A DNA stretch of 46,150 nt, taken from the sequence record NC_021190.1. One strand, given 5' to 3'. Position numbers: made by a program. This document shows positions 33,001 through 36,000 of the stretch, one piece after another (position 1 is the stretch's first letter; every line of letters begins with the position of its first letter). This stretch comes from Enterobacteria phage phi80.

Positions 33001-36000
33001 TGTTGCCCGTTCTCACGCCGTTCTCGCTCTCGCGCGGGGATACTCTCTCACCGACCGGATCGCACCCGGTGATACAGCACGTTTACGTGTAGGGGTCTTA
33101 ACAGGTCATTGACGCTGTAAATCTGCATGTTGTTAAAAAGCAGGCGACTTGCTGTCCGCCGCTGGCTAACTTCGCTCAGCTGTCGATGTTTCGTTTCGAT
33201 GGAGTAATTAAACATCATGTGGATTTGTAGGTCAACACCTTGTGGATTTATTTTGTTGATTTAATCGTTTACTGTTGATTTTTATGTTGATTTATTTTTT
33301 GGTGGCATAAGTGATATGCTGAAAAAAACATCAAAAAGGAGTGGGTAATGGACTTGGATGAAGAAAGAGTGAACATGATGGTTCACGCCATGGGGCGGGC
33401 GGTCATGGAGTTGTCACTGGCAGATTTACCTATGACCCAGCAAAACATCATCGACAAGCTGGAACGGTACCGGAAGGAAACGGGAAACGTGATAGGTAAG
33501 GGTGTGAACAGGGATGCAGCTGAGATAGTCAGGAAGGGTAGTAAAGCTGTGAAGTAGGCACAAAAAACCCGGCGCGGTGGCCGGTTGTTAAAGCTCAATA
33601 TCAACTATGAAAAGTTTACTAATAGCCCCTTTTCTAACTGCTGCTTTGGCAGTTACTTTTACCGCTGACTCATGACTTAGACCCGTTGACAGAAAACGAC
33701 TAAGTGAAATGAGATACGGGTTGTCTGCCTTTGAAGCAGATGGATCGCTTATTTGTGCTGAGATGCGCTTATCTGAATCATCACCTTCTATAATGACTTT
33801 AGCGGTCATTCGGTGAGCGTCGAATTCAGTAAGGAAGATTCGATACTCCCTTAAGCCAAGAACTTCGTCGTCGTCCAACTGGTCTATTACTGCTTTATCT
33901 TGCTCATCAATTACAGCAGGCTTGAAACCATTCCCCGGTGTGACGCTTATCTTATTACAGGTGGTACCGATGGGGGAAACTGCCTGTCTAACTGATGGGC
34001 GTAACTCACTAGCCATCTTGTCAATCACTGAGATTAGACCTGAGATGGTATCTTTATCTTTATTTCCGAGGGCCTCAATTGCCTTCTCAAGTGCTTCTTT
34101 TAGGTATTTCATTTCCTCTTTCTTCTGCGAGTTTTTAGCGAAGATATAAGGCACTAATGCGCCAAGTATAGCCCCCGCAGACCCTGAGAACAATTGAGAC
34201 TGACTGATAAAATTCATGATAGTATCAAGAGAAAAACAATTGGCCCTAGCTTCGGTAGCGTAAATTTTAACCTCTTGAGTTGAGGTGCTTCGCGAGTACT
34301 TTTGGGTTAATGCGAAGGTTCCAGCTGTAGCTAATATCTTCGAAAATCCCTTTAGCGATTCACCGAGCGAAGAAAGTTCAATCTCATGCTTTTCAGCATC
34401 CAAACCGTCATATCTAAGTGAAAAATTAACATCGTGTAAGCCAGTGTTTTCCATCAACAGTCCTTATATGCTTTCACCAAAACGTCTCATCAGGCCACCA
34501 TAAGCACGATCGCAACAACCGAGAGCAAAGTAACCACGCCTACTATCAGATATTCTCTCATCACCCAAACGTCTCTTCAGGCCACTAAAATTATCGGCGA
34601 TATCGCAATACCGAGTACCAGAACACAAAACCGATTATCTCGACATCTGCCTCATCGGCCTCTTCGTCGTCATAATCACGATTAATGCTTCTGATTAGAA
34701 TTTTTCCGCCTGGTTTGCGATAAAGTTGCTTGATGCGCTTCAGATCTCCCTGGTTGATGGCGTAGAGTTCGCCGTCAATAACTCGCTTATTACCAGTATC
34801 AACAGCTACAGTTGCACCATCAGGAATGACTGGCTCCATACTGTCTCCTGATGCAGGAAAACACAGGACACCAGAACCATCACTATTGGCTCCAACTCGA
34901 CGGAGCGTTGCTTTTGAAAAGCGCAATTTAAAACCGTTGTGATCCTCATCGTGTACTCGTCCATCACCACACGCAAACTCGATATCCTTCAGAAACGGTA
35001 CTTCCACCTCATCGTCAGGTAGGGGGGTATTTTTGTCCCAAGCGTCGACAGTTCCCCACTCAGACTCTGGCGGGATGTTGCTCTCCAGATCCTTCTTTGG
35101 AGAACCCTCTCCATTTAATAACCAGTCAAGAGAATAACCGAATTTTTCAGATATTTGTTGCGCCGCCTCACGACTTAACGCGTCTCTTTTTATCCAGTTG
35201 TTGACGGTCTGTGGGCTAGTCGACAAAGCCTCAGCCAAATCCCGCTGCTTCAAGCCTTCCCTTGCCAGTAAAAATTTAATTCTTTCAGAAATGCTGCTCA
35301 TAAAACCCTCCGCTCCATGCATGGTAAACAACATGTGGATTTTTTCCATCACCATAATGTTGATTTAATCCACGCCATGAATTAACATGGTGTTGATTAC
35401 ACATGAGCGGAGCAAAACATGATCAACAAAAAATCCAACGCCAGCACCCCGCTTGAGAAAGCCATTAATGCAGTGGGCGGCTCTCAAAAGGTGCTTGCTG
35501 AAAAGGTCGGCGTAACGCCTCAGGCCATCAATATGCTTAAAAAGCGAGGTGGCAGCCTTCCAGTAACAAAAATGCGTAAATACGAAGAAGTAACCGGACT
35601 TCCTCGCGAAGTTCTATATCCAGGTATCTTTGCCGCCTAACCGGCGGCTCTAACCACGAAATGGAAAGCAATGCATTCACTTGCGTATCAACACAATACC
35701 GGAATACACCCGGGAGCGATGATAAACCGCGCTCAACCTAAGGCGGAGCCAGGTCACGACAAAATCCGCGATGCGGTCCGTGCATGGTCGTCGTCCCTGG
35801 ACAATCAGGACGTAGTGTCAGCGCTGATCATCAACGAATACCGGGAGCAGGGCGGTACCGCCATCAGCTTCCCAGAAGACATCAGCAGGGCGCGCCAGAA
35901 ACTTTTTCGCTTTCTGGATAACCGCTTCGACTCCGATCAGTACCGCGAGAACGTTAGAGAACTGACCCCGGCAATCATGGCTGTTCTTCCTGTTGAGTTT

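What the first reader, a model, noticed from the sequence alone, without database searches (positions are those of the whole stretch)
33215..35400. Same direct-repeat motif at both operator regions, not a palindrome
The motif TGT(G/T)GATTT occurs about five times in the OL region (33215-33300) and three times in the cI-cro intergenic region (35330-35400), overlapping the -35 TTGATT of pR. The copies are direct repeats rather than the inverted half-sites usual for lambdoid operators. Divergent promoters in the OL region (pL leftward, the 69-aa gene rightward) suggest the repressor controls both.
Basis: seen in the sequence. Interest (0 to 1): 0.4.

Follow-up and report, generated by a model that had tools for sequence, protein, structure and literature searches.

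The report
Phage phi80 repressor operators OL/OR
The repeated motif marks the already catalogued operator regions of phage phi80, and most copies are the better-conserved halves of ordinary 19-bp inverted-repeat operators, as in phage lambda, so the finding is largely ordinary.

Summary

TGTKGATT occurs five times at OL and three times at OR, always on the + strand, against about 1-3 copies expected in the whole window.

Five of the eight copies (33218, 33241, 35334, 35358, 35391) have a partner nnTnAACA exactly 3 nt upstream. This gives 19-bp imperfect dyads, RRTnAACA-N3-TGTKGATT. About 30 distinct OL and 30 distinct OR sequences from phages and prophages that keep the recognition helix SPQTVNNW conserve both halves, while the 3-nt spacers and the linkers vary.

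Site spacing (23/24 bp) and the overlap with pL and pR mirror lambda. In lambda, five of the six operators also have their consensus halves co-oriented, so they too look like direct repeats.

Three OL copies (33254, 33273, 33285) lack a partner in phi80 yet are as conserved as the true half-sites. They lie just upstream of a conserved extended -10 (TGATATGCT) for the 69-aa gene. Repressor control of that promoter is plausible but untested.

Verdict: already known, low interest.

The parts
33207..33225 (.). OL1: 19-bp imperfect dyad ATTAAACA-TCA-TGTGGATT. It contains motif copy 1 (33218-33225) and its left half carries the pL -10.
   Evidence: Partner half scores 6/8 at a 3-nt spacer. The pattern TNAACANNNTGTKGATT matches with 0 mismatches. 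Both halves are almost invariant in 21 distinct relatives.
33230..33248 (.). OL2: 19-bp imperfect dyad GGTCAACA-CCT-TGTGGATT. It contains motif copy 2 and its left half carries the pL -35.
   Evidence: It lies 23 bp from OL1 in all four diverged genomes. The spacer and the 4-bp linker vary while the halves are fixed.
33204..33235 (-). pL core promoter, read from the sequence: -35 TTGACC (33235-33230), 17-bp spacer, -10 TTTAAT (33212-33207).
   Evidence: The HK225 record annotates the same 29-bp stretch as a promoter with 2 mismatches to consensus. The tool's consensus scan missed it because it requires A at position 2 of the -10.
33254..33261 (+). Copy c: orphan half-site TGTTGATT, 13 bp after the OL2 right half, with no dyad partner.
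   Evidence: Partner score 1/8. It is conserved in relatives with an N-terminal domain at least about 74% identical (3.6% variable per column, against 16.9% for linkers) and absent in more distant ones.
33273..33280 (+). Copy d: half-site TGTTGATT, 32 bp after the OL2 right half. This is the OL3 position. In phi80 it has no left half.
   Evidence: Partner score 2/8. The +32 position is conserved. In the Serratia-like clade the same position holds a full dyad, AATACACA-N3-YGATGATT.
33285..33292 (+). Copy e: orphan half-site TGTTGATT, 12 bp after copy d. It abuts the T-rich -35 region of the 69-aa gene promoter and marks the end of GenBank's 'O-L region'.
   Evidence: 0.6% variable. Its GATT plus TATTTTT part also occurs in the heteroimmune phages ENT1 and HK639, so part of it belongs to the neighbouring promoter module.
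33312..33320 (+). Candidate extended -10 (TGATATGCT) of the rightward promoter of the 69-aa gene.
   Evidence: TGnTATGCT is conserved upstream of the homologous gene in HK225, Pantoea, ENT1, HK639 and the E. coli CX05 prophage, across four immunity types. No transcript data were examined.
33348..33557 (+). 69-aa gene of unknown function (phrog_3975), divergent from pL.
34591..35301 (-). cI repressor, 236 aa: N-terminal HTH (recognition helix SPQTVNNWIKR) plus a C-terminal S24 peptidase domain. A Cys-Gly pair lies at residues 110-111 and GDSM starts at residue 152.
   Evidence: Pfam hits Peptidase_S24 (8e-20), Phage_CI_repr and HTH_3. 100% identical to the X13065 cI product. Motifs located.
35323..35341 (.). 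ORa, the cI-proximal site in the OR3 position: GGTAAACA-ACA-TGTGGATT.
   Evidence: The left half TAAACA is invariant while the right half decays in relatives (TGTGTATT, TGTTTATT, AGTTAATT).
35347..35365 (.). ORb, in the OR2 position: CATCACCA-TAA-TGTTGATT. Its right half contains the pR -35, TTGATT (35360-35365).
   Evidence: It lies 24 bp from ORa.
35380..35398 (.). ORc, in the OR1 position: AATTAACA-TGG-TGTTGATT, with 7 of 8 positions symmetric. It overlaps the pR -10, TAACAT (35383-35388), and the likely start site.
   Evidence: It lies 33 bp from ORb in all relatives.
35419..35640 (+). Gene 30, the Cro analogue (73 aa). Its HTH (TPQAINMLKKR) resembles that of CI.

Best explanation
These are the OL and OR operators of phage phi80, the binding sites of its lambda-type CI repressor and probably also of the Cro-like gene 30 product. 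Five of the eight motif copies are the stronger ('consensus') halves of 19-bp imperfectly symmetric operators, RRTnAACA-N3-TGTKGATT. A CI dimer would place one HTH on each half, with half-site centres 11 bp apart. OL1 and OL2 cover the -10 and -35 of the leftward pL. ORc and ORb cover the -10 and -35 of the rightward pR. ORa lies next to cI, in the OR3 position. All stronger halves point the same way, so the array looks like direct repeats, as lambda's does. The other three OL copies are conserved half-sites without a partner. The middle one (33273) sits at the OL3 position, 32 bp from OL2, which parallels the 33 bp between ORb and ORc. I infer that CI fills these weakly, helped by cooperativity, and that this places repressor next to the promoter of the 69-aa gene. 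Shown here: identity with phi80, the dyad structure, its conservation, its link to the recognition helix, and the overlap with promoter-like hexamers. Inferred: actual binding, cooperativity, and any effect on the 69-aa gene.
For: (1) The window is 99.7% identical to X13065 (phi80), whose O-L and O-R features coincide with the clusters. (2) An offset scan picks out one arrangement, the partner half AATCMACA 3 nt upstream. It totals 35 matches over the 8 copies, against 10-22 at 24 other offsets and 30 at spacer 0, and splits them into 6, 6, 5, 6, 7 and 1, 2, 2. The local chance of scoring >=5 of 8 is 0.07 per site. (3) The motif follows the repressor's DNA-binding domain. It is conserved upstream of every homologue that keeps SPQTVNNW, including chromosomal genes in Brenneria and Pectobacterium. 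It is absent from ENT1, HK639 and the CX05 prophage, which share flanking DNA and the 69-aa gene but carry other repressors. (4) Phylogenetic footprint. At OL (21 distinct sequences) the fraction of sequences differing from consensus per column is 0.9% for left halves and 1.2% for right halves, against 14% for spacers and 17% for linkers. At OR (22 distinct sequences) the figures are 9.7% and 5.3% against 28% and 21%. In 32 distinct OR 19-mers, T3, C7, G13 and T14 are invariant and A5, A8 and A17 nearly so, and these positions pair symmetrically. Eleven Brenneria/Pectobacterium sites keep AATAAACA and TGTKGATT with 7 different spacers. (5) C7 and A8 lie outside the pL hexamers at OL1 and OL2 and are still invariant, so promoter constraint alone does not explain the left half. 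(6) CI has an HTH domain plus an S24 domain, and its closest solved relative is the 434 repressor N-terminal domain, a binder of dyad operators. (7) The 23/24-bp spacing equals lambda's 23-24 bp, and five of lambda's six operators have co-oriented consensus halves.
Against: No binding data could be examined, because the 1988 phi80 transcription and footprinting papers are not in the library. The left halves overlap promoter hexamers, so part of their conservation could be promoter constraint. Left-half position 4 matches the symmetric C in only about a third to a half of sites, and positions 1-2 are weak. Three conserved copies have no partner, so some non-dyad recognition is not excluded. The 33-bp ORb-ORc spacing differs from lambda's 24 bp. 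pRM could not be located. The related sequences are not independent samples.
Confidence: 0.85

Rival explanations
1. True direct-repeat (asymmetric) operators. CI recognises each 8-9-bp TGTKGATT(T) copy as an independent unit, head to tail, as the P2 C repressor or the phi105 repressor do. On this view the upstream AACA is conserved only because it lies in promoter elements.
For: All eight copies are co-oriented. Three copies (33254, 33273, 33285) have no partner yet are as conserved as the others. The Brenneria loci also have an unpartnered second copy 20 bp after the dyad site. The left halves do overlap the -10 and -35 hexamers.
Against: The partner half sits at one fixed 3-nt offset in five sites that play different promoter roles: -10 on one strand, -35 on that strand, and -10 on the other strand. 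C7 and A8 are invariant although they lie outside the pL hexamers. At ORa the left half is more conserved than the right half. ORc is 7/8 symmetric in phi80 and Pantoea. The protein is a lambda/434-type HTH-S24 repressor. Lambda produces the same illusion.
Confidence: 0.08
2. The repeats are promoter architecture rather than repressor sites. TTGATT would serve as reiterated -35-like hexamers, and the T-rich flanks as UP-like or bent DNA for pL and the 69-aa gene promoter.
For: TTGATT matches TTGACA at 4 of 6 positions and is the pR -35. Copies c-e lie upstream of the pL -35 in AT-rich DNA. Part of copy e (GATTTATTTTT) is shared with heteroimmune phages as part of the 69-aa gene's promoter module.
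Against: The full motif disappears whenever the repressor's N-terminal domain changes, although pL leader DNA and the 69-aa module are retained. It appears upstream of chromosomal homologues with the same recognition helix. No copy at OL has a usable -10 at 16-18 bp (sequence read by eye; one search found none).
Confidence: 0.04
3. The three orphan OL copies are inert relics of a roughly 32-bp tandem duplication (OL2 right half plus copy c giving copies d plus e), and only OL1 and OL2 matter.
For: Copies c and e share a 16-nt extended match (TTATTTTGTTGATTTA and TTTTTATGTTGATTTA, 88%). Copy c is absent in the more distant relatives.
Against: Copies d and e keep their positions (+32 and +44 from OL2) and sequence across relatives down to about 50% N-terminal-domain identity while the linkers between them vary (3.6%, 1.2% and 0.6% variable for c, d and e, against 16.9% for linkers). 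Copy d is a full dyad in one clade.
Confidence: 0.1

Closest known systems
Phage phi80 OL and OR operator regions (GenBank X13065; Ogawa, Ogawa and Tomizawa 1988, cited in PMC1934351)
   Same: Same DNA: 99.7% identity over 2.7 kb. The record's 'O-L region' (window 33201-33292) runs from 6 bp left of OL1 to the last base of copy e. Its 'O-R region' (35316-35396) covers the three OR sites.
   Different: Nothing material. The record gives only region boundaries, and I could not read the papers to see how individual sites were defined. The 289-aa ORF between OL and cI is split into genes 40A and 40B in the 1988 record.
Phage lambda OL1-3 and OR1-3 with the CI and Cro switch
   Same: An HTH-S24 repressor. 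Divergent cI and cro genes around a three-site OR, and a second operator cluster about 2.1 kb away at pL. Imperfect dyad sites with a stronger and a weaker half. Neighbouring sites 23-24 bp apart. Sites overlapping -10 and -35 hexamers. Consensus halves mostly co-oriented.
   Different: The sites are 19 bp (8+3+8) rather than 17 bp, with an unrelated sequence. ORb-ORc and OL2-OL3 are 33 and 32 bp apart rather than 24 and 20. The phi80 OL3 is only a half-site and is flanked by two extra half-sites. cI has a Shine-Dalgarno leader. A small gene is transcribed rightward from beside OL.
Phage 434 repressor and its 14-bp operators
   Same: The closest solved structure to the phi80 CI N-terminal domain (E about 1e-4). 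It is an HTH dimer on dyad operators whose central bases are not contacted.
   Different: Low sequence similarity. The 434 operators (ACAA-N6-TTGT, from memory) differ in length and sequence.
P2 C repressor, a binder of direct repeats (PMC2995052, PMC1904268)
   Same: Co-oriented repeats about two helical turns apart around an early promoter.
   Different: P2 C has no S24 domain, and its operator units have no inverted partner. Five of the eight units here do have one.
Chromosomal CI-like regulators of Brenneria and Pectobacterium (possibly the RdgA regulators; that name is from memory and was not tested)
   Same: N-terminal domain 62-67% identical with the same recognition helix. Upstream lies AATAAACA-N3-TGTKGATT plus an unpartnered second copy.
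   Different: These are not in a lambdoid immunity region, and there is a single dyad site rather than three.

Membership tests
Phage phi80 immunity region (identity) | Near-identical sequence to the deposited phi80 early region, with cI, gene 30, N and the OL/OR features in the same order | tested here: met
   99.7% over window 33000-35700 against X13065. The CI protein is 100% identical. The features map onto the two clusters.
Lambdoid CI/Cro operator switch | Repressor with an N-terminal HTH and a C-terminal LexA-like S24 self-cleavage domain | tested here: met
   Pfam Peptidase_S24 8e-20, Phage_CI_repr 2e-10, HTH_3 2e-9. Cys-Gly at residues 110-111 and GDSM at residue 152. Cleavage itself was not tested.
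Lambdoid CI/Cro operator switch | Operators are imperfect inverted repeats of about 14-19 bp | tested here: met
   Met for five sites. Not met for the three distal OL copies.
Lambdoid CI/Cro operator switch | Three-site OR between divergent cI and cro genes, and a second cluster at pL | tested here: met
   ORa, ORb and ORc lie between cI (-) and gene 30 (+). OL lies 2116 bp away, upstream of N.
Lambdoid CI/Cro operator switch | Operators overlap the -10 and -35 of pL and pR | tested here: inconclusive
   The hexamers TTGACC-17-TTTAAT (pL) and TTGATT-17-TAACAT (pR) lie inside the sites and are conserved. HK225 annotates the pL equivalent. No start-site data were examined, and the consensus scanner reported none.
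Lambdoid CI/Cro operator switch | Repressor and Cro physically bind these sites | not testable with these tools
   Only indirect evidence: the motif co-varies with the recognition helix, and the CI and gene 30 HTH regions are similar.
Direct-repeat (asymmetric) operators of the P2 C or phi105 type | Repeat units lack an inverted partner, and the repressor reads co-oriented units | tested here: not met
   Five of the eight units have a conserved inverted partner at a fixed 3-nt spacer. Three units do lack one, so this feature is met only for copies c, d and e.

The most novel reading that the evidence does not exclude
The three conserved partner-less half-sites at the far end of OL (33254, 33273, 33285) may be a functional co-oriented array read by CI in a non-dyad mode. 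It would couple OL to the promoter of the conserved 69-aa gene. Copy e would sit at about -42 to -35 of that promoter, where the promoter-proximal half of lambda OR2 sits relative to pRM. CI would then activate (or repress) a small prophage gene that occupies this position in at least four immunity types.
Probability: 0.2. Interest if true: 0.4.

Novelty: already known. Interest (0 to 1): 0.15.

Why it matters
It matters little for discovery. These are the operators of a phage studied since the 1960s, and they were annotated in GenBank in 1988. The check has two uses. First, it shows that co-oriented repeats at lambdoid operators should not be read as non-palindromic recognition without looking for a degenerate partner half; lambda itself looks the same. 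Second, it gives an explicit comparative model of the phi80-type operator (RRTnAACA-N3-TGTKGATT, three sites at OR, two dyads plus three half-sites at OL). That model could guide annotation of phi80-immunity prophages, including the phi80dlacZ remnants in DH5alpha and DH10B. The only open point is what the orphan half-sites and the neighbouring 69-aa gene do.

Tried and rejected
(1) Relatives found with full-length CI (EKP1, Klebsiella RCIP0098, ASU11, phiEt88, Salmonella phages, YP3; 50-73% identity) share only the S24 domain. Their N-terminal domains and operators differ, so they were useless for footprinting.
(2) HK225 and the Pseudocitrobacter prophage are too close to phi80 to inform.
(3) I considered a tail-to-tail palindrome, TGTKGATT-N-AATCMACA, suggested by TGTTGATTTAATCCAC at ORb. 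It fits only that one site (7/8; the others score <=4) and its outer part is not conserved in Trabulsiella, Serratia or Pantoea. Rejected.
(4) A head-to-head arrangement with no spacer scores second best (30), but this comes from ACA reiteration. It fits only ORa and OL1.
(5) The word-indexed protein search with the 74-aa N-terminal domain returned only fragments.
(6) Nine literature searches and several look-ups by identifier did not retrieve the 1988 phi80 papers or the 2012 Lula/phi80 genome paper.
(7) The consensus promoter scans found nothing at OL or OR, because the rule requires A at -10 position 2 and 9 of 12 matches.
(8) Rfam found no RNA family in 31500-37500.
(9) I could not place pRM. 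The hexamers that mirror the pL geometry (GTGATG-18-TTTACC) lack the key -10 bases.
(10) NCBIfam gave no specific name for CI, gene 30, the 69-aa protein or the Pectobacterium homologue.

Full report
**What the window is.** Megablast of window 33000-35700 finds GenBank X13065, 'Bacteriophage phi80 early region', at 99.7% identity over the whole query. With an offset of 32062, that record's features map as follows.
- 'O-L region': 33201-33292.
- 'O-R region': 35316-35396.
- N: 32494-32790 (-).
- cI (236 aa): 34591-35301 (-).
- Gene 30, the Cro analogue: 35419-35640 (+).
- nutL: about 32902-33179.

Complete E. coli genomes that carry this OL at 100% identity are mostly laboratory strains such as DH5alpha and DH10B. 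From my own knowledge these carry phi80dlacZ remnants.

**Check of the observation.** TGTKGATTT occurs 9 times in the window against 1.05 expected. Seven copies lie in the two regions, all on the + strand. The 8-mer adds the copy at 35391.

**Direct or inverted repeats.** For every copy I scored the reverse-complement half (AATCMACA) at spacers of 0-12 nt on both sides.
- One arrangement stands out: the partner lies upstream with a 3-nt spacer. The eight copies then score 6, 6, 1, 2, 2, 5, 6 and 7 of 8 (sum 35). Twenty-four of the other offsets give sums of 10-22, and spacer 0 gives 30.
- In the local background, an 8-mer scores >=5 with probability 0.07. Five named sites all doing so, corrected for the choice of offset and subset, gives about 0.003.
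- The five 19-mers are OL1 ATTAAACA-TCA-TGTGGATT (33207-33225), OL2 GGTCAACA-CCT-TGTGGATT (33230-33248), ORa GGTAAACA-ACA-TGTGGATT (35323-35341), ORb CATCACCA-TAA-TGTTGATT (35347-35365) and ORc AATTAACA-TGG-TGTTGATT (35380-35398).
- The pattern TNAACANNNTGTKGATT finds four of them with 0 mismatches and ORb with 1. ORb and ORc also match on the opposite strand, as near-palindromes should.

**Comparative test.**
- Relatives found with full-length CI share only the S24 domain and have other operators.
- Searching with the N-terminal domain alone gave prophages in Pseudocitrobacter, Trabulsiella, Serratia and Pantoea, chromosomal homologues in Brenneria and Pectobacterium, and 55 IMG/VR contigs whose N-terminal domains are 48-100% identical (L038-L092). 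Those down to about 60% identity keep the recognition helix (S/T)(P/A)QTV(N/H)NW; the most distant have variants of it. All but the most distant (L092) carry the motif upstream of the repressor gene.
- Heteroimmune phages that share the pL leader and the 69-aa gene but have other repressors (ENT1, HK639, the E. coli CX05 prophage) lack the motif and show their own palindromes instead. The motif therefore follows the DNA-binding domain, not the flanking DNA.
- In Trabulsiella, Serratia and Pantoea the five sites keep their positions: OL1 to OL2 is 23 bp, ORa to ORb is 24-25 bp, and ORb to ORc is 33 bp.
- Across 21 distinct OL sequences, the fraction of sequences differing from the consensus per column is 0.9% in the left halves and 1.2% in the right halves, against 14% in the 3-nt spacers and 17% in the linkers.
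- Across 22 distinct OR sequences the figures are 9.7% and 5.3%, against 28% and 21%.
- In 32 distinct OR 19-mers, T3, C7, G13 and T14 are invariant, and A5, A8, A17, T18 and T19 are nearly so. The pairs T3/A17, A6/T14, C7/G13 and A8/T12 are symmetric.
- At ORa the left half TAAACA is invariant while the right half decays in relatives.
- Eleven Brenneria and Pectobacterium loci keep AATAAACA and TGTKGATT around seven different spacers.

The operator is therefore a dyad, RRTnAACA-N3-TGTKGATT, with a stronger right half.

One caveat applies. The left halves also carry promoter hexamers, so part of their conservation may be promoter constraint. Against this, C7 and A8 lie outside the pL hexamers and are still invariant, and the same offset holds at sites with different promoter roles.

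**Architecture.**
- pL reads TTGACC (33235-33230), a 17-bp spacer, then TTTAAT (33212-33207). These hexamers lie inside the left halves of OL2 and OL1, and HK225 annotates the equivalent promoter.
- pR reads TTGATT (35360-35365), a 17-bp spacer, then TAACAT (35383-35388). These lie inside the ORb right half and the ORc left half, and are conserved in relatives.
- CI has an HTH plus an S24 peptidase domain, and its nearest solved relative is the 434 repressor N-terminal domain.
- The gene 30 HTH (TPQAINMLKKR) resembles that of CI, so the two proteins may share sites.
- In lambda's own genome, OL1, OL2, OL3, OR3 and OR2 all begin (T/C)A(T/A)CACCG on the + strand, 20-24 bp apart.

**What remains unexplained.**
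- Copies c (33254), d (33273) and e (33285) have no left half in phi80 (scores 1, 2 and 2). Yet they are conserved as 8-mers (3.6%, 1.2% and 0.6% variable) while the DNA between them varies.
- Copy d lies 32 bp from OL2, matching the 33 bp between ORb and ORc. In the Serratia-like clade that position holds a full dyad, AATACACA-N3-YGATGATT. I read copy d as OL3.
- Copy e lies 12 bp further on, and GenBank's O-L region ends at its last base.
- Part of copy e (GATTTATTTTT) also occurs in heteroimmune ENT1 and HK639, as part of the promoter module of the 69-aa gene.

**The 69-aa gene.**
- It has a conserved extended -10, TGnTATGCT (33312-33320), in four immunity types.
- In phi80-type phages this element lies a fixed 18-19 nt after copy e, although the sequence in between varies.
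Control of the rightward promoter by CI, in either direction, is only an inference from position.

**Verdict.** The structure is ordinary for a lambdoid phage and already catalogued. 'Not a palindrome' is wrong for five of the eight copies. The residual curiosity is the trio of orphan half-sites and the small gene beside them.

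Noticed in passing
window 33348-33557 (+); also L004 2687-2914, L036 2502-2738, L037 3409-3618, L017 about 5749-5940: The 69-aa protein (phrog_3975; no Pfam, NCBIfam or PADLOC hit) sits immediately beside OL, divergent from pL, in phages of at least four immunity types: phi80/HK225, ENT1, HK639 and an E. coli CX05 prophage, where the protein is 100% identical. It keeps its own TGnTATGCT promoter element. Trabulsiella and Serratia prophages have a different small ORF in the same place.
   Followed up: partly
window 33588-34457 (-): A 289-aa ORF between OL and cI matches DUF7946 (4e-62) plus DUF7947 (1e-20), phrog_5147, and weakly the PADLOC candidate PDC-S42 (1e-5). The 1988 record splits it into genes 40A (209 aa) and 40B (95 aa). 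HK225, the CX05 prophage and other relatives carry unrelated genes at this position, so it behaves like a swappable accessory ('moron') or defence slot.
   Followed up: partly
window 35308-35315 and 35405-35412: A perfect 8-nt inverted repeat (CTCCGCTC and GAGCGGAG) brackets OR. Each arm is the Shine-Dalgarno-containing leader of one gene, cI on the - strand and gene 30 on the + strand. The two divergent genes therefore have near-identical ribosome-binding leaders (catgGAGCGGAGg and catGAGCGGAGc).
   Followed up: no
window 33120-33136 (-): An extra dyad-like sequence, TTAACA-ACA-TGCAGATT (2 mismatches to the operator pattern), lies about 70-90 bp downstream of pL, inside the annotated nutL stretch. 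Two chance matches are expected window-wide at this stringency, so it may be nothing.
   Followed up: no
window 34591-35355 (-): The longest ORF for cI starts at 35355, inside ORb, and would give 254 aa. Records for HK225 and several prophages annotate the equivalent extended start, which adds 18 residues (MVMEKIHMLFTMHGAEGF). The GGAGCGGAGGG leader before the ATG at 35301 and the 1988 annotation favour the 236-aa protein.
   Followed up: partly
L016, L018-L027 (about 4800-5000): Brenneria species and Pectobacterium betavasculorum carry a chromosomal CI-like gene (232 aa) with the phi80 recognition helix. Upstream lie one 19-bp dyad, an unpartnered TGTTGATT 20 bp further on, a TTGACT/TTGTCT-N17-TAAAAT promoter, and an inverted AATCAACA just after the -10. 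These may be the DNA-damage regulators called RdgA; that name is from memory and was not verified.
   Followed up: partly
window 35671-36213 (+): The ORF after gene 30 (180 aa here; 'cII', 132 aa, in X13065) matches the Pfam YdaT_toxin domain (3e-28), and gene 30 matches YdaS weakly. The phi80 cro/cII pair therefore belongs to the YdaS/YdaT type discussed for cryptic prophages (PMC8630535).
   Followed up: no
L014, L065, L066-L069 (recognition helix): Some relatives have SPQTVHNW instead of SPQTVNNW. In Trabulsiella several right halves read TGTGTATT or CGTTTATT (T instead of G at position 16). The L066 group, with the same His, keeps TGTGGATT/TGTTGATT, so no clear change of specificity emerges.
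   Followed up: no
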